Shown piece after piece: positions 12,161-28,784 of a stretch of DNA of 64,000 nucleotides; position 1 is the stretch's first letter; every line of letters starts with the position of its first letter. The notes beneath the pieces were generated by a model, which did not search any database, was not told where the DNA came from, and saw nothing but the letters and a program-made list of their open reading frames with translations. The position numbers and the translations under genes were made by a program. The DNA is from Candidatus Spongiisociaceae bacterium (lineage in GTDB: Bacteria > Actinomycetota > Acidimicrobiia > Spongiisociales > Spongiisociaceae): assembly GCA_965262915.1 (NCBI GenBank), contig OZ253564.1:512001-576000 (forward strand). The letters run 5' to 3'.

Positions 12161-15100
12161 GTGGTTGTGGCACGAAGGAAGAAAAAGGGCAGACGACGCC
12201 CCAGCCGTGGACCCAGTGCGCCCCGGCAGCAGAAGCCGGTAGTAACGGTTCGGGACTCCGGTGCGACGGCTGGGGCAGATGCGGCAGCGGACGGTGGCCG
12301 GAGCGAGCTCCTCTTCAAACGGTGGGGAGAAAGCAGGGCCGGTGCCCGGGCTGGGCGCGGATTCAACTTCCAGAACACGGTTGGCGCTTGGCTAGCAGCC
12401 CAGATGGCGTCATCCAGGATGGCTGCGGATGTTCTAGTACCTGAAGGGTTCGAAGACATGTCTTTGGAAGGTGCCAGCCCCCTGCATATCCAAGTCAAGT
12501 CCCGTGTTCAGCGTCGTGACCGTTTCCCGATATGGGAAGCGACCAAACACATACTCGACGCGTGGGAAAAGCATCTGAGCCGCGGGAAGGATGATTCGAT
12601 TCTTGTGGTCGTGCTCGAACGCGGCGTCAAGGGCGAAGAGAACCTGGCCGGCTTCGGTCGGCCACTCGCTGACTCGTTGTCGAGCGACTCCGGGCTGCGA
12701 GCCGGGCTCCGCCGCGCCGCGGGCGCACGGGGGATCAACTCCGATGGCATGGACAGGCTCTTGTCTTGCACCGTAGTTGTGGGCGTCACCTGGGAGGAAG
12801 TGACTGCCGGTACCGTTGCCGAACTCGACTGCCTCGTTGATCTCCCGCCCTCCGGTCTTGGTCTTGTTGAACGCCACCTCCGCACTATGGTCGCGGACGC
12901 TGCCGACGCTAATGCAACAACCGACTATGAGCATCGTCGCCGTCTCAGCAGAACTGAACTGGTCGAAGAGATCGAAACCACCGCTGGATTGGTCGATATC
13001 TCCTCACTCGAGTTTGCTGTTAGAGAGGGTATCTGCGAACCGCTGGACCTGACTGGGTCGGTTCCCGCAGACGACCGTTTCTATGAGGGCACAGCAACCC
13101 AGCCGCATCATGTAGCAGCCGGCCTGGTGGTACCCCAGCCCACGGTGATGGACAAGATCCTGTTCGGGCTTGACGAACGGTCCGCTGTGGTCATCAGCGG
13201 CCCTTCCGGTGTCGGCAAGAGCGCAGTCCTGTGGACGGTACCGTTGGCGCTTTCGGGTGTGCTGTGGTACCGGGTTCGACGCCTAGCCGACGGAGACGTA
13301 CCGCATCTGATACGCCTCGCCCGGGCCTACCGTGCCACCCGGGAGACACCGGTCGGTTTCCTGGTCGACGCTGCCGGAACGGATGCGTTGGGCGGCTGGG
13401 CTCGTCTACGCGCCGAAGCGGCCACTGTTCCTGGTGTGCTGCTAGTAGGCACGGCACGGAGCGAGGACCTGATCACTCTGGGTGACCTATCCGATTGTGT
13501 GAGGATACCGATACGACTTGATGAGACCGCAGCGGAGACCATCTTCAGGGGCCTGGAGCGACGTGGTGCTACCACGGTTGCGCATTGGGCGGAGGCGTTC
13601 GCCAACTCCGACGGTCTGACTCTCGAGTTCACCCACATGCTGACACGTGGACGACGGCTCCACGATGTCATCAGCGAACAGGTCCGGCGTCGTATCGCCG
13701 ACAAGCGGCGCCACTTGGAGTTGGAAGTGCTGAGTCTCGTCTCGGTCGCTGACCGCTGGACAGTCTCCATCTCGACACCCGACCTAGCAGCGGCCTGTGC
13801 GGTCACCGACTTCGAACTCCGCAAAGCGACCAGCCGACTTGCCCACGAGCATCTCGTTATCGAACGCGACGGCGCCATGTCGGGTCTGCACCGGCTGCGG
13901 TCGACGGCGATCAGCGACGTCATCCATGACCAACCGCCACCGGACCTCCACAGCACGGTCCGAAGGGTCCTAGATCTGGTCCCCGACTCCGAATTGTGTC
14001 GCTTCGTGGCCAATCTGCTGCGCGACGAGCCATCGGCGAAGGAGACCATTATCAACGCTGCCAGTAGTGACGTCCCCAGCCCGGGTCGTTTGGTCGCCTA
14101 TCTACACGGTTTGCGCCTATCCGACTTCCACAAAGTCGCGAGGGTGTGGAAAGGAATCGCCGATGACCACCGGATACCCGAGTCGTCCCAGGCGTTGCTC
14201 TTCTACTACACGGCAGTAGGCGTCCCGGTCCCAGATTTGCTCCCGCACGAGATCCGCGCCGCGCAAGAGGCGATGAACACGGCACCGGTACCTACGTCCC
14301 GCGACGACCTGGTGGCCGTCGTCGGAGAAAAGACCATCGCTGAACTTCTGGCATTGATCAATGACGTAAGCGAGGCCACGGCGATGTTCGCGGTTCTAGA
14401 GACCGGCACCCCGAACCTGGTTTCCGCTATCAGACAAACCCTGAATGATGACTCGCCGCTAGTCCGGGCCCTGGACACTGCACCCGTGGATCAACTGGCC
14501 GAGCTTATGGCGACCGCTCGGTCCTGTGACCGAACAGTTGCCGAGCACCTAGTTGGCTTGATCGGCGGCCGGGACACTGTTCTTCTCCGCGTGCGGGCCC
14601 ACAATCCGTGGATAACCGAACTTGAGATAAGAGCAGGAGAAGATGGCCCCGTCGCGTACGGCAGGTTCCTTCACGTCTCCGACATTGTGCAAGGCAACGC
14701 CCAGGAGGAAGCCGTCGCACTCGGACAGGTGCTGCTCCGATGCCTCCCCAGCATCGAATCCGTCGACATCCAAGCTCTCACACCGGGCGGTCAAGAGATC
14801 CGGATCGGGAACCGCATCTTCGGGGTCACCCATCTCCAGCGTCAGTACGACCACTCTTTGTCCGGCATCGCGTGGAACCAGGCCCGCATCCGCGGGGCAC
14901 TCACACTCGTCGGCGAAGCCGACACAGTCCGACTGGCCAAGGCACGGCCGCTACTTGACCAGGCAGCTAGCTTGACCTACGAAGCAGGAACCCAACTAGT
15001 AACTGGCACACCCCACAATCTTGGTCCCAGACAACTCACCGAGCAGATCAACGAACTCCACGAGCTTGGACAGTCGCTCGGCCCCCGACGTGAGACGGCT

Positions 15101-16261
15101 GAACTCGACGAGACGCTCATCTCCCAGCAAGCGTCCGTGCTGAACACCGATCATCTATCCGCGCTGATCCACGCGCTGACAGGTAACGTCTTTCGTCGGC
15201 TGGTAATGCCGGATCAGTACAGAAGGCTGGCGGCGTACCTCACCGACACGGTGATCGGGTATCACCTCGAAGGTGCCCGGAGCGAACCTTGGACCCTTCT
15301 GGGTATGGATGGGCATCCAGCCAGCCTTGACCGACTCAGCGAGCTTCTTAGCGATATCCACGCGGTTGTCAGCGAGCTGGCAACCAATGACACCAACGTT
15401 GCGAATGTATTCAGGAGCGTACGTTCCGGAGGAAAGGGACAAGCGCTCCACCGAGCTGCTCGCACTAGTCGGCGTCAACACCGGCAACGTGTCAGTGCCC
15501 GCTGCCGGGCTTTGCAGAAGGTGTGCGACGCCACAGGCTTGAGCACCAAGGTATTGCATCGCCAACCGGAGCAGACTCCTCTCCTCGAATTCGCCATAAC
15601 CGTCGAACTCGGCTCCCTCGTCGAATGGGAGGACGCGCACTCAACACTGGAAGCAGCCCTAGGACCGAACCGGCCCCCCGCGGAGATCTACCTGCTCGTT
15701 CCGCTCCGGGGTCAAAGGTCAGTACCAAGCCAGGCGATGCAGTTGATCGACTCTCTGTTACATTCGCCGGATCCGGGCGACTGGGCGACCACGGTCTCCG
15801 AACCCGCCCCTAGCGAACTCGCCGACACTTTCAGCGAGGCGCAGGAAGCGCTTCAGGTCCTCTCGGGTATCTGCCACGTCCCAGAAGACCAGCAGACGCA
15901 TCAGACAATTCAGACCGCCGTGGAACAAGCCACGTCCCGATTCCGGAAAGCATACGAAAGGCTTCTCGAACTACCGTCGGATCCACTGATCGACGAACTG
16001 GTAGCAGTTGTTAAAGCTCTGGCAGCACAAGTGCAAGCAGAACTCGACGGGACACATTCCGGCCTGAGCCTCGCTGAGAAAGTCGCTCTCGGCGTATTCC
16101 AAGGTGACCGAACAGAGGAGTTCGACACTATCTTGGGTGCCCGATGCCTGGCCCTAGAGTGGGAAATCGATCCCAAGGCCGCTCTGGCAATGTTCGCTGA
16201 CCTTTCAGAGGCTGCGCGGAAATGTGGGGTGGGTGGGTTGAAATCCTTGGAATGGGGGTGA
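12161..16261 (+). CDS. Large PD-(D/E)xK (Cap4-like) nuclease - P-loop NTPase protein, putative anti-phage effector; last codons derive from an ISL3 end
   Basis: AGRGFNFQ..EGFED..HIQVK nuclease motif; SGPSGVGKS Walker A; FLVD Walker B; long helical C-terminus. Confidence 0.75.
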   Translation: MVVARRKKKGRRRPSRGPSAPRQQKPVVTVRDSGATAGADAAADGGRSELLFKRWGESRAGARAGRGFNFQNTVGAWLAAQMASSRMAADVLVPEGFEDMSLEGASPLHIQVKSRVQRRDRFPIWEATKHILDAWEKHLSRGKDDSILVVVLERGVKGEENLAGFGRPLADSLSSDSGLRAGLRRAAGARGINSDGMDRLLSCTVVVGVTWEEVTAGTVAELDCLVDLPPSGLGLVERHLRTMVADAADANATTDYEHRRRLSRTELVEEIETTAGLVDISSLEFAVREGICEPLDLTGSVPADDRFYEGTATQPHHVAAGLVVPQPTVMDKILFGLDERSAVVISGPSGVGKSAVLWTVPLALSGVLWYRVRRLADGDVPHLIRLARAYRATRETPVGFLVDAAGTDALGGWARLRAEAATVPGVLLVGTARSEDLITLGDLSDCVRIPIRLDETAAETIFRGLERRGATTVAHWAEAFANSDGLTLEFTHMLTRGRRLHDVISEQVRRRIADKRRHLELEVLSLVSVADRWTVSISTPDLAAACAVTDFELRKATSRLAHEHLVIERDGAMSGLHRLRSTAISDVIHDQPPPDLHSTVRRVLDLVPDSELCRFVANLLRDEPSAKETIINAASSDVPSPGRLVAYLHGLRLSDFHKVARVWKGIADDHRIPESSQALLFYYTAVGVPVPDLLPHEIRAAQEAMNTAPVPTSRDDLVAVVGEKTIAELLALINDVSEATAMFAVLETGTPNLVSAIRQTLNDDSPLVRALDTAPVDQLAELMATARSCDRTVAEHLVGLIGGRDTVLLRVRAHNPWITELEIRAGEDGPVAYGRFLHVSDIVQGNAQEEAVALGQVLLRCLPSIESVDIQALTPGGQEIRIGNRIFGVTHLQRQYDHSLSGIAWNQARIRGALTLVGEADTVRLAKARPLLDQAASLTYEAGTQLVTGTPHNLGPRQLTEQINELHELGQSLGPRRETAELDETLISQQASVLNTDHLSALIHALTGNVFRRLVMPDQYRRLAAYLTDTVIGYHLEGARSEPWTLLGMDGHPASLDRLSELLSDIHAVVSELATNDTNVANVFRSVRSGGKGQALHRAARTSRRQHRQRVSARCRALQKVCDATGLSTKVLHRQPEQTPLLEFAITVELGSLVEWEDAHSTLEAALGPNRPPAEIYLLVPLRGQRSVPSQAMQLIDSLLHSPDPGDWATTVSEPAPSELADTFSEAQEALQVLSGICHVPEDQQTHQTIQTAVEQATSRFRKAYERLLELPSDPLIDELVAVVKALAAQVQAELDGTHSGLSLAEKVALGVFQGDRTEEFDTILGARCLALEWEIDPKAALAMFADLSEAARKCGVGGLKSLEWG

Positions 16262-16550
16262 GGGTTCGCTGGAATCGGTGAGTTACTAAATCGCCGGTCC
16301 AGGGAGCCTCGATGTCTCATGTCATGTCCGTTCGGTTGCACCTGTCGGGTGTTCGCGTGTTGGAGGTGGGGGTCGATTCGGATGGTGGCCGCCATCATGG
16401 GGTGGGGATGGCATCGGATCATGGGCTTGGTGAGAGTTCACTCGGCTTTGGTGGCGGAGCGTCACCGGGCCCGGCCGTGTCGTGTGCTGCTGGTAGACGA
16501 AACATCGATCCGGCGCCGGTGTCGGTATGTGACCGTGGTGGCCTGCGGTG
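16208..16550 (+). mobile_element. Internally deleted ISL3 remnant with an uninterrupted left IR
   Basis: GAGGCTGCGCGGAAATGTGGGG then high similarity to 31407-32010 (MSHVMSVRLHLSGVRV; LLVDETSIRRR). Confidence 0.85.
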
Positions 16551-16785
16551 ACGCACAGCCATGTATTGGGTCACTAGGTATGATTATCCCGCCCGGCTGG
16601 GAAGGTAATCGTAAATCCGTGTGGACATGCGGCCCGTGTACGGATAGCGACATATCACCGGCCAGTACTGGAACTCCGGCGTTGGAGTGGAAGATGACCG
16701 TCAATTGGTTAGCCTCACCTTAACCTAGAACTAACTCCACGAGTCGGCTAGGAAGCGCCGCCGACGCTCGATCCCGCTCAGTTCG

Positions 16786-17741
16786 TCATTCGCCACCGAA
16801 AACTACACGCACCGGCTCCCCGACACCACCGGACCCCCGGGTAACGACGGCTCGGGTCATACTCTGCGGTGAGCGGCCACCGCTTCGATACCCGGCCGTA
16901 CATACCGATCCAGGGCTGCGCAGGCTCCAGTGGCGGCTTTTCGCCTTCAGCAGCGGTGCTCCTACTCCCCTCTCCCCCAGGTGGGTGAGCGCAGAGTGGC
17001 GCAGCTGGTGCAGCGTCCAACCCCGACGCGTCGCGGAACAGCGCCCAAGCCTGCTGATACGACAGCCTCCCCCGACCGGTGTCGAGACATAGGTCTGGAA
17101 GCGCTGGCGCCTGGTTGGGCCGGCGGTGAGTGACGAACACCGGACCCCGACGACGGCCGCCCAGATAACGGGGCAGCAGGCGGGCGGTTCCCGAAGCCCA
17201 CACGACTTCTCGGCGGTGGCCGCCTTTGCCCCTGACCACAGCCTTCCTGGCTCCGAGGTCGAGGTCCTCGACGTTGAGGGCCAGTATCTCGTTAGCACGG
17301 GCCGCTGTTTCGTACGGCATTCCTCCACAGGGTCTTCTCACGTACGTGAACATCCGGCCGGGTCCACAGGGTGTGCTGCTGCTCGTAGCGGATCGGCGCG
17401 GTGTCGTCGCGCACCTGTGGGCGGCGTTCTATCCCCGCCAACGGATCCTCGGTTATCCAACCTTGTGCCTGTACCCAGCGGCGGAACGACCCCACCGCGG
17501 TGAGACGGTTGTTCCACGTCGCCGACGAAGCATCACCCCAGTGATCCTCAAGTACGCGGCGTACCCGCTCGGCGGTGAACCCGTCGAGGGCGAGGTCAGA
17601 GCCGAGGTCCCCGACCACGGCTCCGAGGGTGTGGGCGTAGCTGCGACGGCCTTTGGCCGATAGCGGTTTGGCCGCCAGTAACTGCTCGACGGCTCGGCCT
17701 AGGGAGGGGACACGGTGTGGGAGGGCTAGGACTTCGGGCAC
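16786..17741 (-). pseudogene. Tyrosine recombinase, frameshifted
   Basis: Three overlapping frames give the N-terminal SAM-like domain, YETAARANEILALNVEDLD..VRGKGG and LHQLRHSALTHL. Confidence 0.8.
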
Positions 17742-17830
17742 CGTATCAGCGGTTACCAGAGATATCCGACAGGGTTCACAGGGGTGGAGGCTACCCGAAC
17801 CGCCTGCATGATCGGGGTAACGGTCGGCTG

Positions 17831-17863
17831 TTACGAGAGATACTCCGCCAGTATCTCTAGTAA
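17831..17863. promoter_or_regulatory. lox-like recombination site 1 (13-7-13)
   Basis: TTACGAGAGATAC-TCCGCCA-GTATCTCTAGTAA, arms 12/13 inverted; 90 bp upstream of the recombinase; extra half-site TTACCAGAGATAT at 17753. Confidence 0.7.
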
Positions 17864-17926
17864 GGCACAGGCACAGCGCTCCTCCCTATTCTGAGCCGTA
17901 ACCGACGAACCGAGCCAATGCTGGCG

Positions 17927-18235
17927 TCAGTGCGCCGGAGCCAGATTGACCGTGACCGTCATATCGATAGCTGCCGCGGCCTTGTGGAGAGTCGTGAGCG
18001 TGGCGCTCGTGCCGCCGGCCTCAAGGCGGGCAACCGCCGCCTGGCTCGTCGACATGCGAGCGGCAAGGTCGCGCTGTGTCAGCCCCGCGGCTTCTCGCGT
18101 GTCGCGTACCTTCTCCCCCACCTCCATAGCCAGACGAGCCACAGCAAGGGCCGCGTCGAACTCGGCACGCTCGTTGACGCTCATCGTGTTGAGCCGTCTC
18201 TGTCGCAACTCTTCAAACGTTGGGCGCGCCATCAT
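17927..18235 (-). CDS. XRE-family HTH antitoxin (HigA-like)
   Basis: REAAGLTQRDLAARMSTSQAAVARLEAG; overlaps the toxin stop. Confidence 0.85.
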   Translation of the reverse strand: MMARPTFEELRQRRLNTMSVNERAEFDAALAVARLAMEVGEKVRDTREAAGLTQRDLAARMSTSQAAVARLEAGGTSATLTTLHKAAAAIDMTVTVNLAPAH

Positions 18236-18570
18236 TCCTCCTCAGGTGAGTGTCCCTCAGCGATGCACCGCCGAATCAACCCCGAGCCCGCCGGACTTCG
18301 GCCCGCTCGTTCTGCCTCTGCTTGCGAAAACGTCGTCAACAGAATAATCCGCCGGTCTTCCGCGAAGTAGAACGTGACCCGTCGCGCGACGCGGCCGAGG
18401 CCGACCCGAAGCTCGAACAGCCCATCGCCCAACGACCGCGATGCCGGGAACCGCAGACGGCTGCCATCCTCGGCGAGTCGTTCGACCGCCGCCGCCACCG
18501 TCGCGAACTCTCCCACGGAAAGCGACTCGATCCATTGCTCAACTTCCGGCTCGACCTCCACCAACCACAT
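18232..18570 (-). CDS. RelE/Gp49-like toxin (HigB-like); C-terminus may carry compensating indels
   Basis: LRFPASRSLGDGLFELR..RVTFYF..IILLTTF; toxin-first order. Confidence 0.8.
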   Translation of the reverse strand: MWLVEVEPEVEQWIESLSVGEFATVAAAVERLAEDGSRLRFPASRSLGDGLFELRVGLGRVARRVTFYFAEDRRIILLTTFSQAEAERAGRSPAGSGLIRRCIAEGHSPEEE

Positions 18571-18740
18571 GACATCAAACGCCGACGCCCCGAAGCCAGC
18601 GACGACACGAATTGCGAACGGGAACCCCTAACCGGACAGCCCCACTACCCCACCCAAACGCCGCCGGAGCCAGGATGGGCTACGAGCAGCTGAACAGCAG
18701 GCTAAGAACCCACGGGCATGTTCGAGGTTTCGTTCCACCG

Positions 18741-18773
18741 CTACCAGAGACACTCGGCCAATATATCTCCACT
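18741..18773. promoter_or_regulatory. lox-like recombination site 2 (degenerate)
   Basis: CTACCAGAGACAC-TCGGCCA-ATATATCTCCACT, same orientation as sites 1 and 3. Confidence 0.45.
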
Positions 18774-18848
18774 TGGATGACGGGCCATGAACAGCAGTCT
18801 TGGGAAGGTAGGGTGCGGCGCCTGGGCTCGCTACGGAAACGGCGTTGG

Positions 18849-19808
18849 CTACCAGTCCTCGGTCTCAACGAACAGCGGCGCGTACCGGTAGACGGCTGCG
18901 AACTCCTGCGCATCCCTAGCCGGGATCCCTGCTACGGATGCGGCTTCTCTAACCTTGTCGCGTGTATCCGGTATCGCGCTTAGGAGGTGTTGTACCTCGC
19001 GGCGGGTGAGACGAGGTATCTTGATCTGGCAAGGTTCTTCGCCGGACCGAGTGAACTCGAGGGTTCCTATCCTGCATTTGTCCCACTGGTGGCGGTCGAC
19101 TTCGGCGACGAGAGCACCGCCAACCGTGAGCATTTGCGCTCCGTCGGCGTGGACCATATGGAACATTTGATGGAACGTGATGTGTTTTTCTTTGGGACGT
19201 GCCGCGTTCCGTGAGCCGAGCGCTGCTCTGATTTGTTCCCGCAATATCCGATACGAGAACTGTGCGTATTCGGCCCTTGTACGCGGTTCCGACCGGCCGT
19301 CTCCGACCTCGCTTAGCCAGCCCTCCCGTTGATCATCAGGGGGCCGTTCGGCGTTGATAGTGACTATCAGCACGCTTGCCGAAGCGCATCGTCCTACGGC
19401 CTCTTCTATATCGGAGAGCACGCCCTTGTTGACTCGGCTCTCGTAGTCAAGCCATACGATGTGCGGACGGTTCTCAAGTCCTATCTGTGGTAACGCATCG
19501 CCAGTCCTCTTCATTACTACTTCGATACACGCTAGCGGCAGGTTGAACCTGACGCGGTCTTCAGCCCGTGGGTCGCCCTCGATGGTGATCATGTCGCAGA
19601 TCCCGAGCCGACGGTGGACGACCTGGAAGTCGCGAAAGTAGGTTGACCCCATCCCAACGTACCGGTATTTGTCAACGGGCATGAGCGGAGTTAGCCGGGC
19701 TAGAGCCTCGACGATCATCCGGCGCGACGTTGCTTTCGCAGGGCGGAGGGAATAGTCGACCTTCGGTCGGAAGGGTGGCATACCGGTCTCAGCTGATTTC
19801 GTCGGCAT
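18849..19808 (-). CDS. Putative methyltransferase-fold protein
   Basis: DYSLRPAK..RRM, YRYVGMGSTYFRDF, IVWLDY; overlaps the upstream ATPase. Confidence 0.7.
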   Translation of the reverse strand: MPTKSAETGMPPFRPKVDYSLRPAKATSRRMIVEALARLTPLMPVDKYRYVGMGSTYFRDFQVVHRRLGICDMITIEGDPRAEDRVRFNLPLACIEVVMKRTGDALPQIGLENRPHIVWLDYESRVNKGVLSDIEEAVGRCASASVLIVTINAERPPDDQREGWLSEVGDGRSEPRTRAEYAQFSYRILREQIRAALGSRNAARPKEKHITFHQMFHMVHADGAQMLTVGGALVAEVDRHQWDKCRIGTLEFTRSGEEPCQIKIPRLTRREVQHLLSAIPDTRDKVREAASVAGIPARDAQEFAAVYRYAPLFVETEDW

Positions 19809-21129
19809 ACAGCCGCTCGAATGCCTCTTCCCCGATCTGCCGGTTCGTGGTGAGGTGAAGAGCTTTCTTGAGTTCGTTCACGCGGGAAATATCTGCCGGG
19901 AACTGGATGCTGGTCGTCCGCGGGCGGGCTTGAATGGTCCGTAGTGTGTCCCGAGACCGCTCAGGTACTCGGAATCGGCCAATCGGCACGTCGCTGACCG
20001 GCGTGGGTTGCGCCATCATCAGCGCTGTCCGAACGGCTTGCTGCATCTTGCCGTCGCTCTCCTCGAACTGATGCCGTTCTATGACCAGCTCGTTGGTGAA
20101 AGTCGCGAATTGGCGGAGGACGGAACGCATCTTGCCTAGAGCATTCCTGTAGACGTCCGAAGAGGCGTCGATTTCAGTCTTTGTCGTCGTCCACGGTAGC
20201 GCGGCCGGAGAATCGGAAGCAAAGAACACAAAACCCCGAAACCGCGCGTATTGCGGATGCCACGCTGGCACATCGGGTCCGTCGAGCCCGGCCGTGCCCC
20301 AGCCGGTAAGTCCTGTGCGATCAGCCTTCAGCACAAGGCGGCCGTTGCAGTAAACGTACCAACCGGATTCGGCAACCGACCTCCGCTTCAGACCGATGCC
20401 AGCGATGATTCGTAAGTTGACGCTCTGATCCCCGGACAAGAGCACCGCGCTCTGGTTTTCGGGCCGTATCCCTCCGCCTACAAGAAGTTTATGTATGCGC
20501 TGGTCCGCCGGTTCCATGTTCAGTGAGATCGTCAGTCCCGCCTTGATCGCCTCGCCGTGCCTATCCGCGACATCGTGCAGCATCCTGCGTACGTAGCCGT
20601 CGTCGGCGAATGACTCACTCACGCCCTCGTGCAGATTCTTCACTTCGACCGTCGTACCTGCTTCGTCGGCTGGGGTATCGATGATCTCCATCGGAAACGT
20701 CCAGTCGCCCTCCTGCTCGCGCCACTGCCCGACATCCAATCCAACAACGAACCGAGTATGGGTTGTCGACGAGTCGACCTCGAAGTTGCGCCCGAGGCGA
20801 AAGACGGCCCGTTTCATCCCGATCCCGAACTCGCCTATCCGCGTTGTCGGATTGAACCCCGGCGCCCGGCCGAACCTGAACGCGTAGTGCCGGGCCGTGT
20901 CGATGTCAATGCCCCTACAGTTATCGCTGATCTTGAAGTGATCCCGATCAAGTATCACATTTATGTAAAAGTCGTCAAGGCCCCCGCCCGGCGTGCGGTG
21001 CGCGTAGGCAGCGTCGACAGCGTTGTCGATCAGGTCCAGGATCGCTCCGTCAATACCAATGTCCCGCACCAGCATGTCGACAAAGAATCCTCTCGTCGCA
21101 CTCGCGTCGGCCGTGGATCGTGTCGTCAT
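19789..21129 (-). CDS. GHKL/MORC-type ATPase (HATPase_c_3)
   Basis: ILDLIDNAVD, ISDNCRGID, IGEFGIGMK, GTTV, YCNGRLV; ATGA overlap with the dcm stop. Confidence 0.85.
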   Translation of the reverse strand: MTTRSTADASATRGFFVDMLVRDIGIDGAILDLIDNAVDAAYAHRTPGGGLDDFYINVILDRDHFKISDNCRGIDIDTARHYAFRFGRAPGFNPTTRIGEFGIGMKRAVFRLGRNFEVDSSTTHTRFVVGLDVGQWREQEGDWTFPMEIIDTPADEAGTTVEVKNLHEGVSESFADDGYVRRMLHDVADRHGEAIKAGLTISLNMEPADQRIHKLLVGGGIRPENQSAVLLSGDQSVNLRIIAGIGLKRRSVAESGWYVYCNGRLVLKADRTGLTGWGTAGLDGPDVPAWHPQYARFRGFVFFASDSPAALPWTTTKTEIDASSDVYRNALGKMRSVLRQFATFTNELVIERHQFEESDGKMQQAVRTALMMAQPTPVSDVPIGRFRVPERSRDTLRTIQARPRTTSIQFPADISRVNELKKALHLTTNRQIGEEAFERLYADEIS

Positions 21130-22220
21130 GGGCCAGCAGCCTCGTTCTCGTCTACCGCACGCCACACCGCGGCCGCCACCGCGCGGGCGAGCAACGGGGG
21201 CACGGCGTTGCCCACTTGCATATAGCCACTCCACTTGGTGTGGTCAACCCAGAACCAGTCGGGCATGGACTGGAACCGCCGCGGCCTCACGCACCGTGAT
21301 GACACGAGGAAAGGCATGTGGATCGGTCTCGGCGCCGTTTGGCTACCGCGGCCTGGCAACGTACCAGCGCGGATAGTGGGCGCCGGCCGGTCCGGGTGCA
21401 ACCTCAAGAAGCGGCTGATCGGCTCCGGAGTACCCGGACTCACTGATCGGAACCGCTCCTCCACAGCAGGCGCTTGCCTGACGCGGTCGCAGCCCGTGAG
21501 AGCTCCAGGGAGCGCCCGCGGACGCGCTCTGTCACCATCGTCCGGCGCATCGCCGCCGGAGCCGCAAAGCGTAGGAACTGGCCTGCCCAAGCGCGCCGTC
21601 ATGCTCCCCGTACAGTCCAAGCCGGCAGTTCTCAAGCAGCTCAAGATCACCAATTGCATCCCGCCGCCGGTCGGCGTCGCCGCGCCGGACTCCTGCGGCG
21701 CCTTGGGTAGCGGCAGTCCGCTCCGAGCGCCCACCATAAACACTCGTCGCCGACGCTGCGGAACGCCGAAGTCTGCAGCATTGAGCAACCACGGCTTGCC
21801 CAACTCGTAGCCCGCTCGCCTCATATCGCGATCGAACCCCTCGGCGATCCCCCGTGCCCCGGGCAAAAGGATGCCAGGAACGTTCTCCATGACGAAGTAG
21901 CGCGGGCTGGCCTCGCGGACGAGGCGGCCGAACTCTTTTGCCAGTCCGCCGGCGATCATCATCCTGCCGCCTGAGCCCACCGACCGAGAACGCAGCGCAA
22001 GGAGGCCCTCCGATCAGCACAGTGCAGGAGCGTAGACCCGCGGCGCAAAAACTCTGGCGTCGGCGGCGAGCACAGCCGCGTCGGGAAAGTTTCGAGCGTA
22101 GGCCCTAATAGCCCGCTCATCGCTGTCCACACCGAGGGCGGGCACGAAGCCCGCCTGCTCGAAGCCGAGCGAGAAACCGCCAGCGCCAGCGAACAAACCG
22201 ATGACGGTCGTATGCTCCAT
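21126..22220 (-). pseudogene. dcm: C5 cytosine DNA methyltransferase, frameshifted (decay or sequencing indels)
   Basis: LFAGAGG, GGPPC..FS, MENV, VPQRRRRVF and QVGNAVPP spread over different frames. Confidence 0.85.
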
Positions 22221-22281
22221 CGGAAACAACACTACCCGCTGTCCCCCCAGCCGCCTGCATAATCCCGGTATCACCTTCGCG

Positions 22282-22314
22282 TTGCCAGAGATACTCCGCC
22301 AATATCTCTACTTT
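22282..22314. promoter_or_regulatory. lox-like recombination site 3
   Basis: TTGCCAGAGATAC-TCCGCCA-ATATCTCTACTTT, spacer identical to site 1. Confidence 0.65.
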
Positions 22315-22529
22315 GGCGGCGGGCCCCTGAGTACGTCCGAACGAGCCGTCGGATCGTTAACCAACATAAGCCAAGCGGCTGGAAGCCGATTAACGGGCCG
22401 GGTGTTCCCCCCAAAGGGTGGGGAAGGCGCGTTGGTGGTATACTGGTGGGGCTGTGGGCAGTAGCCTGCGGAAGCGGGGTTCGGTACCTCTCCGGACGGT
22501 GAGTGGCCGGACTTTCGCGCGTCTGGGGG

Positions 22530-23024
22530 TCAGCGTTGGTCAACGTCGCGGACGTATTCGAGGATGTCGCTGATTCGGGACCGCCAGTTGCGCTGGGCTC
22601 CGTATGACCACGCTACGGCGTCGGCTACCCATAGCAGGGGTTCCTCGTAGCCTGATAGGTGTTGGTAGGACAGAGCGGCTGGTGCGTTACCGGCGCGGAT
22701 GGCCGCCGCGATCTGGCGGCGTTCTTGGGTGTCTTGGCCGGTTTCTCGCCGTTCGATGACGATCCGTCCTATGTCGGTGTTCCCCGAGTCGCTCAGTATC
22801 GCCGCCAGGGCCTGCCGGCGAGCGAGGGGCTCTTTTTTGGTTGAGGTGTACACCCGGGCGCGGACGGGGAGTTTGGACATCGCTGCGAGCAGCCCCCGAC
22901 GGCGGCGGGCGCTCTCGTTGACGAAGTGCAGCCGCCGTTGGCCTGGCATCAGCAGGGCTCGTAGTCCCACCCGGACGGCGGGTAGGTCACCGGGGTTGAC
23001 CAAGACCACACAGACCAGATAGAG
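22530..23024 (-). pseudogene. DUF3800-like protein, 5' end removed by IS30
   Basis: YLVCVVLV..RRLHFVNE..EPLLWVADAVAW; N-terminus runs into the IS30 end. Confidence 0.55.
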
Positions 23025-24476
23025 CCCGGGTTCAAGGGGTCGTTGCAACACTGCCTTGTTGGAGGGAGTGTAGGTGCTCGTTGAGGGTCTCGGCGGGGGT
23101 CTTCCAGTTGAGGGTTTTGCGGGGTCGGCTGTTGAGTGCTGCAGCGACGGCGTCGAGGTCGTTGCGTGAGTGTCTGTGGAGGTCGGTGCCTTTGGGGAAG
23201 TATTGGCGTAGGAGGCCGTTGGTGTTCTCGTTGGTTCCGCGCTGCCATGGACTCTGCGGGTCGCAGAAGTAGATGTCGAGGTTGGTGTCTGTGCGGAGCT
23301 GGGCGTGTTGTGCCATTTCGACTCCTTGGTCCCAGGTCAGCGAGCGGCGGAGCTGTTGGGGCAGGGTGATGATCGACGCAGCGATAGCGTCTCGTACGGC
23401 TTGGGCGCCGTGGCCGGCGAGAGGGGGCCCGTTGTGGACCCGTTGCTGTTTTCGGTGGCCTGGCATGGGTGGGAGGTGCAGCAGCATCGTGAACCGGGTG
23501 GTCCGCTCCACCAGTGTTCCGATCGCAGAACTGTGGAGTCCGATGATCAGGTCGCCTTCCCAGTGGCCTGGCACTGCCCGGTCGTCGGCCTCGGCGGGGC
23601 GTTGGGTGATCATGATCTCGGGAGCAACGAACGTCTTGCGTCGCCTCCGGGTTCGTGCCCTGGGGACCCGCAACGCTCGCCCGGTCCGCAAACAAGCCAC
23701 CAACTCGCGTTTGAGCGCACCCCTGCCTTGCACATAAAGCGCCTGGTAGATCGCTTCGTGGGAGATTCTCATCGACTCATTATCGGGGAAATCGACCCGG
23801 AGCCGGTTCGAGATCTGCTCAGGGCTCCACGACGTTGCCCACCGTCGATCCTTTCGGGGCCCATGACGGCGACCGACCCAGCGCACCTGGGGGCCTGGCA
23901 CCAGCTCACCATCGGGGCGGGCGATAACGCCACCGAGACGATCTTGGACGTACCGGCGAAGCTTGTCGTTCTCAGCGAGCTTCGCCACCTTCGGACGGCA
24001 GGCACGCCGATCCGAATGCCACTGCGCGGTCGTGGCCCGATACTCCAGGCCTCCGCTACGGGTTGCGGCGTTGCGGCGCAACTCACGTGAGATCGTCGAC
24101 GCACACCGACCCAGGCGGCGGGCGATCTCACGCACCCCACAGTCGCGGGCGTGGAGAACCGCGATCTCTTCCCGCTCAACAAAAGATAAATAGCGTCCCG
24201 AAACAGGGACGAAAGAAAATGGGACCATCCCACCATTCTCGCGGAACCAACGCGAACCAACCGCGGGCGACACACCAGCCGCCACACCGGCATCCTCGCT
24301 CGACAACCCACCAGCGATCCCTTCCCAAAACCGCTCCCGATGCTCACGCCGCCCGACCGGCGGACGACCAGGCGACCGCATCGCCGGCCGCAACGCACGA
24401 TCAGCCCTACGAACCTTCCTTGCTCCCATTGCAACTCCTCACTCTCGAGACGTTGCGACGACCGTTTGAATCCACC
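23025..24476 (-). mobile_element. IS30 family element (copy 1)
   Basis: Ends GGTTCAAGGGGTCGTTGCAAC / GTTGCGACGACCGTTTGAATCC enclose the transposase. Confidence 0.9.
23032..24429 (-). CDS. IS30 family transposase
   Basis: WSPEQIS, ISHEAIYQ, GHWEGDL, TWDQG, SPWQRGTNENTNGLLRQYFPKG. Confidence 0.95.
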   Translation of the reverse strand: MGARKVRRADRALRPAMRSPGRPPVGRREHRERFWEGIAGGLSSEDAGVAAGVSPAVGSRWFRENGGMVPFSFVPVSGRYLSFVEREEIAVLHARDCGVREIARRLGRCASTISRELRRNAATRSGGLEYRATTAQWHSDRRACRPKVAKLAENDKLRRYVQDRLGGVIARPDGELVPGPQVRWVGRRHGPRKDRRWATSWSPEQISNRLRVDFPDNESMRISHEAIYQALYVQGRGALKRELVACLRTGRALRVPRARTRRRRKTFVAPEIMITQRPAEADDRAVPGHWEGDLIIGLHSSAIGTLVERTTRFTMLLHLPPMPGHRKQQRVHNGPPLAGHGAQAVRDAIAASIITLPQQLRRSLTWDQGVEMAQHAQLRTDTNLDIYFCDPQSPWQRGTNENTNGLLRQYFPKGTDLHRHSRNDLDAVAAALNSRPRKTLNWKTPAETLNEHLHSLQQGSVATTP

Positions 24477-24812
24477 CAATATCTGTCCATTCGCTACACG
24501 AACCGGCTGGCGGAAGCCGGCATCGAGCCATCGGTCGGCTCGGTTGGGGATTCGTACGATAACGCCCTCGCCGAATCCGTCATCGGTCTGTACAAGACAG
24601 AACTCATCCACAAACGCGCTCCGTGGAAGGACCTCGACCAGGTCGAGTACGCCACCCTCGAATACGTGGACTGGTTCAACCACCGCCGGCTTCTCGAACC
24701 CATCGGAGACATCCCACCAGCAGAAAAGGAGGCCAACTACCATCGTCAACAGGAACGAGTCCAGCTAGCTGGACTCAAGTAAAACACTCTCCGGCAAACC
24801 CGGTACGGTTCA
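24477..24812 (+). mobile_element. IS3 family 3' fragment with right IR
   Basis: [30 protein letters not shown]; ends CCCGGTACGGTTCA. Confidence 0.9.
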
Positions 24813-25036
24813 CTCCTCGCCTACGACACCGAACTGCTCACCTGCACAGGTGGCGTCGCCGCCCACCAAGCAGCAACCCCCGAATTGCTCACCGAACTCG
24901 CCGGCAGCAACAACCATTGGATACGACGCGCAGTCGCCCAACACCACAACACCCCACCAGAAATACTCGAACAGCTCACCACCGACCCAGACCCCTCAGT
25001 ACAGTGGGCAGCCGCCACCAACCCCACACGCCCTGA
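24813..25036 (+). pseudogene. LRV/HEAT-repeat protein 3' fragment
   Basis: Frame reads TPELLTELAG..WIRRAVAQHHNTPPEILEQLTTDPDPSVQWAAATNPHTP*; 5' end cut by IS3. Confidence 0.6.
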
Positions 25037-25323
25037 ACCCACTATCCGGTCGCGCTAGCCAACATCCCCTCCGCCCACAACTCGGGTACTTCCGGGAGTA
25101 CCTCAGGGAAAAGAAGCAACAACAAGCCCCTGGACCGTAGATCTCAGACAACTACGGATCCAGGCGCTACATGTAGATCTTGCCCTGAGACTTGAGCTAT
25201 TCGGATCTGCTGCCGCGGGCGGCCACAGGACCGGCGTGTCTGCAACTCGGGGTCTTCGCGTGTTGTGGGCTGTTGAGTTCGCGGGTTAGGGGTGTTGGCG
25301 GGGATTCTGGCCTATTTCAGTAG

Positions 25324-25671
25324 TCAGCCCAGTTCAGCGATCAAGGTAGCCACTTCTTCCCGCAGAACCGGTATTCCGTCCTGTAGGTTGTGCCACAGTT
25401 CTGTCCAGTCCCGCGTGAACAGCCGGTGGGACATCACGTTGCGAGACCCGATGAGCGACCTGCGGCCGGTTATCCGGTGCCTGTAGTCGGGGAACTTGGT
25501 CGTCATCTGGTTGACCGCTTCGCCGATGTCGTGGTTCCATGCGAAGGCGCGGTCCTGCGCGTCGGTGTCGTTCAGGAACTCTTCCAAGGTCATGCCCGCT
25601 AGCAGGCTCGCTGCCTGTTCGCATCTACGGCCGATCAGGTCTAGGTAGGCGCGGGGGTCAGGGACGGGCAT
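25324..25671 (-). CDS. HepT/DUF86 HEPN ribonuclease toxin
   Basis: MTLEEFL, IGEA, RNVMSH (R-x4-H), LW. Confidence 0.8.
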   Translation of the reverse strand: MPVPDPRAYLDLIGRRCEQAASLLAGMTLEEFLNDTDAQDRAFAWNHDIGEAVNQMTTKFPDYRHRITGRRSLIGSRNVMSHRLFTRDWTELWHNLQDGIPVLREEVATLIAELG

Positions 25672-26658: not shown

Positions 26659-26994
26659 TGAACCGTACCGGGTTTGCCGGAGAGTGTTTTACTTGAGTCC
26701 AGCTAGCTGGACTCGCTTTTGTTGACGATGGTAGTTGTCCTCCCTTTCTGCTGGTGGGATGTTCCCTATTGGTTCGAGGAGTCGACGGTGGTTGAACCAG
26801 TCCACGTACTCGAGGGTGGCGTACTCGACCTGGTCCTGGTCCTTCCATGGTCCCCTCTGTCGGATGAGTTCGGCCTTGTAGAAGCCGATGACTGATTCGG
26901 CCAGGGCGTTGTCGTAGGAGTCTCCGACTGATCCGACCGACGGTGAGATGCCGGCTTCCGCCAGCCGCATGCTGTAGCGGATGGACAGGTATTG
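26659..26994 (-). mobile_element. IS3 family 3' fragment with right IR (inverted)
   Basis: Starts TGAACCGTACCGGG; [18 protein letters not shown] on the minus strand. Confidence 0.9.

Positions 26995-28784
<1,790 letters not shown>

What the first reader, a model, noticed from the sequence alone, without database searches (positions are those of the whole stretch)
16786..22314. Tyrosine recombinase followed by three co-oriented 13-7-13 sites delimiting gene cassettes
Seen: sites at 17831 (arms 12/13 inverted, spacer TCCGCCA), 18741 (degenerate, TCGGCCA) and 22282 (TCCGCCA), plus a half-site at 17753. They fall precisely between modules: recombinase | HigBA-like TA | Dcm-MORC-MTase |. Established: lox/dif/TnpI-IRS sites have this architecture and need matching spacers. 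Inference: a cassette-capture platform analogous to pdif modules or integrons, accumulating defence and TA cargo. The recombinase is frameshifted in this sequence.
Basis: partly seen in the sequence, partly recalled or inferred. Interest (0 to 1): 0.72.

Follow-up and report, generated by a model that had tools for sequence, protein, structure and literature searches.

The report
Decayed Tn3-type resolvase with repeated sites
The broken recombinase is the tyrosine resolvase of a Tn3-family transposon relic, and extra copies of its resolution site bound a toxin-antitoxin pair and defence genes, which hints at how such genes come to sit beside resolution sites.

Summary
Three co-oriented 13-7-13 sites lie at 17831, 18741 and 22282, where shuffles expect none. 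A half-site lies at 17753. The sites sit exactly between gene modules.

The recombinase (16786-17741, minus strand) is a pseudogene with at least four frame changes. It belongs to a family that, in relatives, lies divergent to a Tn3-family transposase inside elements bounded by 38-bp inverted repeats. The palindromic site lies between the two genes, and a half-site lies 77-79 bp from the core. So site 1 is a TnpI/IRS-like resolution site.

A HigBA pair beside it is the usual Tn3-family arrangement (PMC7157771). Sites 2 and 3 keep the core and about 45-65 bp of left flank but lack the half-site.

Homology to a second array in this genome and to a same-genus genome breaks inside the site spacers, and left and right flanks occur in different combinations. 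That points to past recombination at the cores.

Cargo differs between loci and is mostly defence or toxin-antitoxin genes. Multi-site arrays were seen in only two genomes of one genus. No excision junction was found, and this locus is decayed.

Verdict: a new variant of a known kind. A dedicated integron-like platform is possible but not shown.

The parts
16786..17741 (-). Pseudogene of a TnpI-like tyrosine resolvase, with an N-terminal SAM-like domain and a catalytic domain
   Evidence: Pfam PF02899 and PF00589 match the two ORF pieces. tblastn with the intact 302-aa paralogue shows the reading frame changing at about 17322, 17022, 16915 and 16872. Contigs from the source sample reproduce 16500-17207 with no differences.
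17753..17765 (+). Accessory half-site TTACCAGAGATAT, a direct repeat of the left core arm, 78 bp from it and 12 bp from the recombinase start
   Evidence: The 77-79 bp spacing is conserved in 11 of 20 foreign loci and 4 of 5 loci of this genome.
17786..17830 (+). Conserved left region of the resolution site, between the accessory motif and the core. It is also present left of sites 2 and 3.
   Evidence: Alignments. In 19 of 20 sites from G000 and G001 the left 45 bp fall into one cluster, although the threshold used was loose.
17831..17863 (+). Site 1: the recombinase-proximal core, 13-7-13, spacer TCCGCCA
   Evidence: nhmmer E = 2.8e-18.
17927..18235 (-). HigA-like HTH antitoxin
   Evidence: PF01381 HTH_3 at 43.1 bits and PF13744 HTH_37 at 30.3 bits.
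18232..18570 (-). Gp49/HigB-like toxin, upstream of the antitoxin in the operon
   Evidence: PF05973 at 38.5 bits.
18741..18773 (+). Site 2: a degenerate core-only copy, spacer TCGGCCA, with no clear accessory half-site
   Evidence: 2 mismatches. nhmmer E = 2.6e-15. Homology to the G001 locus L018 ends at 18761, inside the site.
18849..19808 (-). Methyltransf_35 family protein, annotated as a putative O-methyltransferase
   Evidence: PF20553 at 269 bits. No PADLOC or NCBIfam match.
19789..21130 (-). GHKL (MORC-like) ATPase. The likely ATG at 21130 overlaps the Dcm stop.
   Evidence: PF13589 HATPase_c_3 at 39.2 bits. The start position is read.
21126..22274 (-). C-5 cytosine DNA methyltransferase (Dcm-type) pseudogene, in three frame pieces
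   Evidence: PF00145 matches ORFs 22014-22274, 21532-22020 and 21126-21980. PADLOC MTase_II. Contigs from the source sample cover 18727-22310 with no differences.
22282..22314 (+). Site 3: a core-only copy, spacer TCCGCCA as in site 1, about 60 bp upstream of the Dcm start
   Evidence: Homology to the middle junction of array 2 begins at 22299, inside the site.
22530..23023 (-). Fourth module: an ORF of unknown function with its N-terminus cut off. A full-length 199-aa paralogue lies between two sites in array 2.
   Evidence: 93% DNA identity to genome 4379546-4378859. tblastn. No Pfam, PADLOC or NCBIfam match.
23024..24476 (-). IS30-family insertion sequence that truncates the array
   Evidence: HTH_38 plus rve transposase at 23032-24429. 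More than 20 copies in the genome.

Best explanation
The locus is a decayed piece of a Tn3-family transposon resolution module.

What each part is:
- The recombinase was a TnpI-like tyrosine resolvase.
- Site 1 with its accessory half-site is that resolvase's resolution site, comparable to the IRS of Tn4430: an inverted-repeat core where strands are exchanged, plus a directly repeated recombinase-binding motif that would favour resolution.
- The HigBA pair next to it is the addiction module that Tn3-family transposons typically carry beside the resolution site.
- Sites 2 and 3 are copies that keep the core and the left region but lack the accessory motif.

How the array arose (inferred): by analogy with TnpI, core-only sites recombine in a relaxed way, between molecules as well as within one. 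On this reading, sites 2 and 3 are the footprints of resolvase-mediated core-by-core recombination. That recombination spliced other site-bearing modules next to the resolution site: the Dcm/MORC-like/methyltransferase operon and the 199-aa ORF.

Present state: the locus is inert. The resolvase and Dcm are pseudogenes, site 2 is degenerate, and an IS30-family element cuts the array.

Shown here: the family assignment, the site architecture, breakpoints inside the sites, and variable cargo. Inferred: that the resolvase made the joints, and that the left region carries a promoter for the gene to its left.
For: Family and Tn3 context:
- The intact paralogue and 14 homologues keep the residues I read as the R-K-H-R-H-Y catalytic set (R148, K172, H244, R247, H270, Y279; all are invariant columns).
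- In relatives at about 60% identity, the gene lies divergent to a Tn3 transposase (DDE_Tnp_Tn3 with or without DUF4158; E as low as 1e-138) in L051, L053, L058, L079 and L045. These account for 6 of the 24 proteins scanned.
- Those elements are bounded by 38-bp GGGG inverted repeats: L051 at 6856/13978, L079 at 6860/13300, L053 at 6852/20413, L058 at 6853/13404, L057 at 20/7400.
- Two of two plasmid relatives examined (43-46% identity) lie within about 5 kb of an annotated Tn3 family transposase.

Site architecture:
- A RAGATA-N9-TATCTY palindrome lies 103-168 bp upstream of the recombinase in 21 of 80 metagenome loci. It is also present in G019 and G005.
- The accessory motif lies at 77-79 bp.

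Literature:
- Toxin-antitoxin pairs, including Gp49-HTH_37 and PIN_3, sit directly beside the res/irs site in Tn3-family members (PMC7157771; passages and the Discussion read).
- TnpI recombination at core-only sites is relaxed, both within and between molecules (PMC2847244; abstract and passages read).

Breakpoints at the sites:
- Window 17890-18761 matches G001 L018 at 84%, and the match stops inside site 2. L021 repeats the order recombinase, site, toxin-antitoxin pair, site 2, and then diverges.
- Homology of the window to the array-2 middle junction starts at 22299, inside site 3.

Flank combinations (my reading of the flanks printed and the alignments): recombinase-proximal left flank with the right flank of site 1; proximal left with the right flank of site 2 (genome 69307); proximal left with a site 3-type right flank (G001 C8); site 2-type left with a site 3-type right (L018); site 3-type left with site 3-type right (window, array 2).

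Cargo:
- It varies between loci: Dsr1-like SIR2 proteins (two loci; the L018 one matches PADLOC Dsr1), GmrSD/HEC-05, an AIPR protein, type I restriction-modification, PIN_3-HTH_17 and AbiEii.
- The Dcm/MORC-like/methyltransferase DNA was not found in the 60 relatives searched.

Tn3 relics in this genome: inverted repeats at 68809 (beside site 69307) and at 4390814 (7 kb from array 2), plus transposase fragments only.
Against: - No Tn3 transposase gene or inverted repeat was found in or next to the window's array. Its transposon origin rests on homology.
- Arrays of two or more sites were seen only in G000 and the same-genus genome G001. The loci from other sources that had enough flank show one site.
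- Site 2 is degenerate in all three copies (window, L018, L021), as expected for a relic without selection.
- Sites 2 and 3 carry about 45-65 bp of left-flank homology that stops short of the accessory motif. Simple crossover at the core does not explain that.
- No consensus sigma-70 promoter was found at the sites.
- Relatedness to Tn4430 TnpI itself was not tested.
- Only one accessory motif was found, against two in Tn4430, and the recombinase and transposase genes are divergent rather than colinear.
- No recombination has been demonstrated.
Confidence: 0.62

Rival explanations
1. A dedicated capture platform, similar to an integron in function. The recombinase and proximal site act as a docking site into which circular cassettes integrate. 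Each cassette carries its own core site at the 5' end of its operon. Selection maintains arrays of defence and toxin-antitoxin cargo in these genomes.
For: - Two arrays in G000 and two in G001, with different cargo.
- Modules flanked by sites on both sides: the HigBA pair, the Dcm operon, the 199-aa ORF, and the SIR2 gene together with the toxin-antitoxin pair.
- The 199-aa ORF module occurs in two arrays behind different neighbours.
- Cargo is almost all defence or toxin-antitoxin genes.
- Flanks are combinatorial.
- Sites 1 and 3 have identical spacers.
Against: - Only 1 of 8 recombinase/site loci in G000 has an intact gene, and its own site is 2 bp short.
- Site 2 is decayed in all copies.
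- Of the family's loci with enough flank to judge, most have a single site, and where the element is whole it is an ordinary Tn3-family transposon.
- Arrays are short (2-3 sites) and confined to one genus.
- In L018 the spacers of the two sites do not match.
- No circle or deletion junction appeared in contigs of the source sample. Contigs can miss rare forms.
Confidence: 0.17
2. Sites 2 and 3 are not recombination footprints. They would be copies of the resolvase promoter/operator region that were duplicated or co-opted upstream of other operons, or leftovers of nested and deleted transposon copies. The match with module borders would follow only from their being 5' regulatory regions.
For: - Each distal site lies upstream of the operon to its left, in the position that site 1 holds relative to the recombinase gene. 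The Dcm start is about 60 bp from site 3 and the HigB start about 176 bp from site 2.
- The left-flank homology of 45-65 bp extends beyond what a crossover at the core requires.
- res/irs sites are known to hold promoters and to be bound by the resolvase as a repressor (PMC7157771, passages read).
- The genome is full of IS elements and rearrangements.
Against: - Homology between loci ends within the core or spacer, not at the edge of the regulatory region.
- The same left flank occurs with different right flanks and the reverse.
- The array-2 middle junction keeps only a right half-site joined to unrelated DNA, which is typical of recombination at a secondary site.
- No promoter consensus was found.
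Confidence: 0.15
3. The sites are attL/attR-type junctions of small integrative elements, and the recombinase is an ordinary integrase.
For: Direct repeats of a tyrosine-recombinase site flank DNA segments.
Against: - The recombinase lies outside all three intervals, and no site lies beyond its 3' end.
- In relatives the site is internal to transposons bounded by inverted repeats, between the transposase and recombinase genes.
- No tRNA or other usual target is involved.
Confidence: 0.03

Closest known systems
[quoted passage not shown]
   Same: - A tyrosine recombinase serves as the transposon resolvase.
- The site lies directly upstream of its gene.
- The core is an inverted repeat, with a directly repeated accessory motif on the side of the recombinase gene.
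- Tn5401 carries a toxin-antitoxin pair beside the irs.
(PMC2847244 and PMC7157771, passages read.)
   Different: - One accessory motif was found instead of two, at a fixed 77-79 bp.
- The arms are 13 bp around a 7-bp centre, against 14-bp motifs with a 4-bp spacer in Tn4430.
- In relatives the transposase and recombinase genes are divergent with the site between them, not colinear.
- Sequence relatedness to TnpI was not tested.
- The window copy has no transposase gene or inverted repeats and carries extra core-only sites.
Toxin-antitoxin modules embedded in Tn3-family transposition modules (Lima-Mendez et al. 2020, PMC7157771)
   Same: Gp49/HTH and PIN_3 pairs sit immediately beside the resolution site, next to the point of strand exchange.
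   Different: Here the toxin-antitoxin pair is bounded on its far side by a second, degenerate copy of the site. The paper does not describe this in the parts I read, and it states that the mode of acquisition is unclear.
Integrons (IntI, attI, attC cassettes)
   Same: - A tyrosine recombinase gene is followed by a proximal site and an array of site-bounded modules.
- The cargo includes toxin-antitoxin and defence genes.
   Different: - The recombinase scores far below the integron/XerA model cut-off (66.8 against 220 bits).
- The sites are simple double-strand palindromic cores with no attC-like folded structure.
- The site lies at the 5' end of each operon.
- Arrays are short, at 2-3 sites.
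pdif modules (XerC/D sites flanking resistance and toxin-antitoxin modules in Acinetobacter plasmids)
   Same: Short recombinase core sites bound small toxin-antitoxin or cargo modules.
   Different: - The enzyme is not XerC or XerD (71 against 335 bits and 63 against 330 bits).
- The sites are all co-oriented. From recall, not from any call, pdif sites alternate in orientation.
- Here the recombinase is encoded at the locus.

Membership tests
Tn3-family tyrosine resolvase system (TnpI/IRS type) | Tyrosine recombinase with an intact R-K-H-R-H-Y catalytic set | tested here: not met
   The window copy is broken by at least 4 frame changes. The feature is met in the intact paralogue and 14 homologues, where R148, K172, H244, R247, H270 and Y279 are invariant columns.
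Tn3-family tyrosine resolvase system (TnpI/IRS type) | Encoded inside a Tn3-family transposon: a DDE_Tnp_Tn3 transposase and about 38-bp terminal inverted repeats | tested here: inconclusive
   - Met for relatives: L051, L053, L058, L079, L057 and L045, and 2 of 2 plasmid relatives examined.
- Not met at the window locus. No transposase gene or inverted repeat was found there, and G000 holds only transposase fragments and scattered inverted repeats.
Tn3-family tyrosine resolvase system (TnpI/IRS type) | Resolution site directly upstream of the recombinase gene: an inverted-repeat core plus directly repeated accessory binding motif(s) | tested here: met
   - Core at 17831-17863 and accessory half-site at 17753-17765.
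- The same layout occurs in 21 of 80 metagenome loci.
- The spacing is 77-79 bp in 11 of 20 foreign loci and 4 of 5 G000 loci.
- Only one accessory motif was found, where Tn4430 has two.
Tn3-family tyrosine resolvase system (TnpI/IRS type) | Sequence relatedness to TnpI of Tn4430 or Tn5401 | not tested
   No reference sequence was in hand. The one Bacillus plasmid hit examined (24% identity) had no Tn3 transposase within the 5-kb flanks shown.
Tn3-family tyrosine resolvase system (TnpI/IRS type) | Resolves cointegrates by recombination between directly repeated sites | not testable with these tools
   Needs an in vivo or in vitro recombination assay.
Integron | IntI-type integrase | tested here: not met
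   NCBIfam NF040815 (XerA/integron integrase) scores 66.8 bits against a cut-off of 220.
Integron | attC sites that fold as imperfect single-strand hairpins at the 3' end of promoterless cassettes | tested here: not met
   - Single-strand DNA folds of the three sites give z-scores of -1.6, +1.8 and -0.9, and only the short core palindrome pairs.
- The sites lie at the 5' side of the operons.
Xer/dif (including pdif modules) | XerC/XerD recombinases acting at dif-like sites | tested here: not met
   TIGR02224 XerC scores 71.4 bits against a cut-off of 335. TIGR02225 XerD scores 62.9 against 330.
HigBA-type (Gp49/HTH) type II toxin-antitoxin pair | Gp49/RelE-fold toxin gene followed by an HTH (HTH_3/HTH_37) antitoxin gene in one operon | tested here: met
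   PF05973 at 38.5 bits (cut-off 23.9), PF01381 at 43.1 bits (cut-off 23) and PF13744 at 30.3 bits (cut-off 27). The two ORFs overlap by 4 bases: 18232-18570 and 17927-18235.

The most novel reading that the evidence does not exclude
Tyrosine resolvases of this Tn3-family clade, acting in relaxed mode on core-only copies of their resolution site, would be a general module-capture mechanism. On this reading, toxin-antitoxin pairs and defence operons are mobile site-bearing cassettes that integrate at the resolution site. That would explain why toxin-antitoxin genes always sit beside res/irs. In sponge-associated bacteria it would have produced small arrays of defence cassettes that resemble integrons but are independent of IntI and attC.
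Probability: 0.2. Interest if true: 0.75.

Novelty: new variant of a known kind. Interest (0 to 1): 0.48.

Why it matters
Tn3-family transposons are major carriers of accessory genes. How toxin-antitoxin pairs and other passengers come to lie exactly beside the resolution site is stated to be unclear (PMC7157771, Discussion read).

This locus and three related arrays show such modules bounded by extra copies of the resolution-site core, with breakpoints inside the cores and shuffled flanks. That gives a concrete and testable mechanism: relaxed resolvase recombination at core-only sites.

The work also defines a widespread and, as far as my searches show, little-described clade of tyrosine resolvases. 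These have a divergent transposase / site / recombinase layout and a single accessory motif at a fixed 78 bp. The literature searches were made, and none returned a description of it. The clade is spread across MAGs labelled as different phyla.

If the arrays are only relics, the finding is a tidy annotation of a decayed mobile element and nothing more.

Tried and rejected
- Excision or circle junction. I laid Logan contigs of 4 runs (one sample, probably the source of the assembly) on 16500-23200. No joint links site 1 to site 3 or site 2. The joints seen (18578/23171 and 22769/18004) look like other genomic copies of the toxin-antitoxin pair and the IS elements, though I did not trace them. 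Contigs drop rare variants, so this says nothing about absence.
- RNA. No RNA holder was listed.
- Promoter in the conserved left region. The consensus sigma-70 scan found none at the sites, so the promoter idea stays an inference.
- attC-like folding: none.
- Rfam: no family reached its gathering score in 16000-25500.
- Continuation of the array after the IS30-family insertion. Nothing homologous to array 2 lies beyond 24812.
- Inverted repeat or transposase at the window locus: not found.
- Other copies of the toxin-antitoxin module (genome 1388409 and 3681156, 85-89% identity). Their homology starts at 17891 and ends at 18578, and no site was detected beside them.
- Flank clustering at 62% identity with single linkage was too loose to define the right-flank types. 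The types in the report come from reading the alignments.
- Link to Tn4430 TnpI through Bacillus plasmid hits. The one hit examined had no Tn3 transposase in the region shown.
- Chance, an antitoxin operator and integrative-element att sites were considered and rejected, for the reasons given under the rival explanations.
- Supplementary tables of PMC7157771 (res-site maps, figure S2) were not opened. They could show whether doubled sites have been seen before.

Full report
**1. The observation**

The region was read. The pattern AGAGATAY-N7-RTATCTCT with up to 2 mismatches hits the 64-kb window three times, all on the + strand: 17836, 18746 (2 mismatches) and 22287. One hundred shuffles gave a mean of 0.00. 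A 25-mer with up to 3 mismatches hits sites 1 and 3 only, and no shuffle gave a match.

Written as 13-7-13, the sites are:
- Site 1: 17831-17863, spacer TCCGCCA.
- Site 2: 18741-18773, spacer TCGGCCA, arms degenerate.
- Site 3: 22282-22314, spacer TCCGCCA.

The half-site TTACCAGAGATAT at 17753 is not significant alone (10 hits against 8.2 expected).

ORFs and Pfam matches confirm the modules:
- A recombinase in pieces (PF02899, PF00589), 16786-17741, minus strand.
- An HTH_3/HTH_37 antitoxin (17927-18235) and a Gp49/HigB toxin (18232-18570).
- Methyltransf_35 (18849-19808).
- A GHKL/HATPase_c_3 ATPase (19789 to about 21130).
- A C-5 cytosine methylase in three frame pieces (21126-22274).

All of these are on the minus strand. 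An alignment of the sites shows that conservation extends about 45 bp to the left of each core.

**2. The recombinase is a pseudogene, and the genome holds many relics**

tblastn with an intact paralogue shows that the window copy changes frame at about 17322, 17022, 16915 and 16872. Contigs built from four runs of one sample reproduce 16500-17207 and 18727-22310 with no differences. That sample is probably the source of the assembly, so it is not independent. Within that limit, the frameshifts in the recombinase and in Dcm are not obvious consensus errors.

The window lies in a 5.06-Mb single-contig genome (G000) with 64% GC. Genome-wide there are 11 sites of this type. There are 8 recombinase/site loci, and only one has an intact gene: 4930987-4931895, 302 aa, P0004. 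Its own site is 2 bp shorter.

A second array lies at 4383578 / 4379622 / 4378364 on the minus strand. There the recombinase is reduced to its first 40 codons.

**3. What the recombinase family is**

P0004 has thousands of relatives, annotated only as integrase or XerC/D-like. The residues I read as the R-K-H-R-H-Y catalytic set (R148, K172, H244, R247, H270, Y279) are invariant in 15 aligned members. Scores against the XerC, XerD and XerA/integron-integrase models are far below their cut-offs.

Genomic context decides the matter. In 80 metagenome loci, a RAGATA-N9-TATCTY palindrome lies 103-168 bp upstream of the recombinase match in 21. Two more have one at -3.2 kb, and 57 have none by this strict pattern; those are mostly the relatives at 56% identity or less, or loci with little upstream DNA.

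In the loci with long flanks, the gene on the other side of the site, divergently transcribed, is a Tn3-family transposase. This holds for L051, L053, L058 and L079, and as two ORFs for L045 from the same-genus genome G005. These units are bounded by 38-bp inverted repeats that begin with GGGG, 6.4-13.6 kb apart. Homology between L051 and L079 spans the inverted repeat, the transposase gene, the site and the recombinase gene, and stops at the recombinase stop codon. Variable passenger genes follow.

Two of two actinomycete plasmid relatives examined (43-46% identity) lie near annotated Tn3 family transposases.

The family is therefore the tyrosine resolvase of a group of Tn3-family transposons, and the site is its resolution site.

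A motif like the left core arm, in direct orientation, lies 77-79 bp from the core in 11 of 20 foreign loci and 4 of 5 G000 loci. It is the only such motif in the 150 bp examined. This matches the logic of the Tn4430 IRS, which has a core plus directly repeated accessory TnpI-binding motifs on the side of the recombinase gene (PMC2847244, abstract and passages read). Here only one accessory motif is seen, and the two genes are divergent.

**4. The toxin-antitoxin pair**

In Tn3-family transposons, type II toxin-antitoxin pairs lie directly beside the res/irs site, next to the crossover point. These include Gp49-HTH_37 and PIN_3 pairs. The authors state that how they were acquired is unclear (PMC7157771; passages and the Discussion read, supplements not opened).

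The window's HigBA pair fits this arrangement. So do:
- AbiEii next to the site in L017.
- PIN_3/HTH_17 in L023, in array 2 (L011) and in L012.

**5. The extra sites**

Sites 2 and 3 keep the core and about 45-65 bp of the left region, but they lack the accessory motif. Evidence that they mark past recombination:

(a) Window 17890-18761, which is the toxin-antitoxin pair plus the left half of site 2, is 84% identical to L018 of the same-genus genome G001. The homology stops inside the site. Beyond it the window continues with the methyltransferase operon and L018 with unrelated DNA. In L018 a Dsr1-like SIR2 gene (1199 aa) and an unknown ORF lie between the proximal site and the toxin-antitoxin pair.

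(b) L021, also from G001, repeats the order recombinase, site, toxin-antitoxin pair (with an internal deletion), site 2-like site, and then diverges.

(c) The module after site 3 (ORF 22530-23051) recurs in array 2 at 93% identity, between that array's middle and distal sites. Homology to the middle junction begins at 22299, inside the core. The left half of that junction is unrelated DNA, as at a secondary site.

(d) Left and right flanks occur in different combinations across 20 sites of G000 and G001, by my reading of the flanks printed and the alignments.

Cargo next to or between sites differs from locus to locus:
- HigBA and the Dcm/MORC-like/Methyltransf_35 operon (window).
- PIN_3-HTH_17, a GmrSD/HEC-05 protein and the 199-aa ORF (array 2).
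- SIR2-family proteins (L018, which matches PADLOC Dsr1, and L141).
- An AIPR protein (L143).
- Type I restriction-modification (G019).
- Housekeeping genes at L140.

The Dcm operon DNA was not found in the 60 relatives searched.

In TnpI, core-only sites recombine in a relaxed way and give both intramolecular and intermolecular products (PMC2847244). By analogy, this offers a route for integrating site-bearing circles. That step is inference.

**6. What weakens the platform reading**

- The loci from other sources that had enough flank have a single site. Arrays of 2-3 sites were seen only in G000 and G001.
- Site 2 is degenerate in all three copies.
- The two L018 sites have non-matching spacers.
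- In G000, 7 of 8 recombinase copies are broken.
- G000 has only fragments of a Tn3 transposase, plus scattered inverted repeats. Among them are one beside site 69307 and one 7 kb from array 2. None was found at the window locus.
- The left-flank homology of the distal sites ends before the accessory motif, which a simple crossover does not explain.
- No fusion or circle junction was seen in contigs, no promoter consensus, no attC-like fold and no Rfam family.

**7. Conclusion**

The best reading (about 0.6) is a decayed Tn3-family resolution module. Extra core-only copies of its resolution site record resolvase-mediated splicing of toxin-antitoxin and defence modules.

A dedicated platform that works like an integron remains possible (about 0.17-0.2). 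A purely regulatory or duplication origin of sites 2 and 3 is the main conservative rival (about 0.15).

The finding is a new variant of a known kind. Its value is that it makes a stated open question testable: how passengers come to lie beside res sites.

Literature searches returned no description of site-bounded modules of this type or of this resolvase clade. That covers only the open-access library searched.

Noticed in passing
window 16207-16552: A repeat of about 350 bp just left of the recombinase remnant. It has at least 20 partial copies across the genome at 74-91% identity. It may be a miniature element or the end of an IS.
   Followed up: no
window 12161-16261 (+): A 1366-aa ORF with weak AAA_16 and nSTAND NTPase matches, both below the Pfam cut-offs, directly upstream of the locus. 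It could be a STAND-type defence gene. No PADLOC match.
   Followed up: partly
genome G000 1270157/1270511, 1466475/1466823 and 1475828-1476379: Pairs of Tn3-type 38-bp inverted repeats in inverted orientation, only about 350-550 bp apart. They resemble Tn3-derived miniature elements (TIMEs).
   Followed up: no
window 18849-22274: An operon of Dcm, a MORC-like GHKL ATPase and Methyltransf_35, with overlapping stop and start codons. It has no PADLOC or NCBIfam system match and was not found in 60 relatives. It is a candidate methylation-linked defence module, now with a broken Dcm.
   Followed up: partly
window 23024-24812 and 26659-28784: IS30-family elements and an IS3-like fragment, with dozens of copies genome-wide at 83-96% identity. 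The genome is heavily colonised by insertion sequences and rich in pseudogenes.
   Followed up: partly
L017 (record titled Acidobacteriota MAG) and L023 (record titled Acidimicrobiia MAG), against G000: Recombinase at 73-77% identity. In L017 the site has the identical TCCGCCA spacer. The record titles name different phyla, which suggests recent horizontal spread of the element.
   Followed up: no
genome G000, many places (for example 317611, 1293920, 2361145): A recurring 23-bp palindrome-like motif, GGAGATATGGTGGAAATGCCTCC, with at least 10 copies. It is unrelated to the sites studied and is probably the end of another repeat family.
   Followed up: no
L011 4754-5353 (array 2), equivalent to window 22530-23051: A 199-aa protein with no family match. 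A distant paralogue (36% identity) lies at genome 4793044. The function of this recurring module is unknown.
   Followed up: partly
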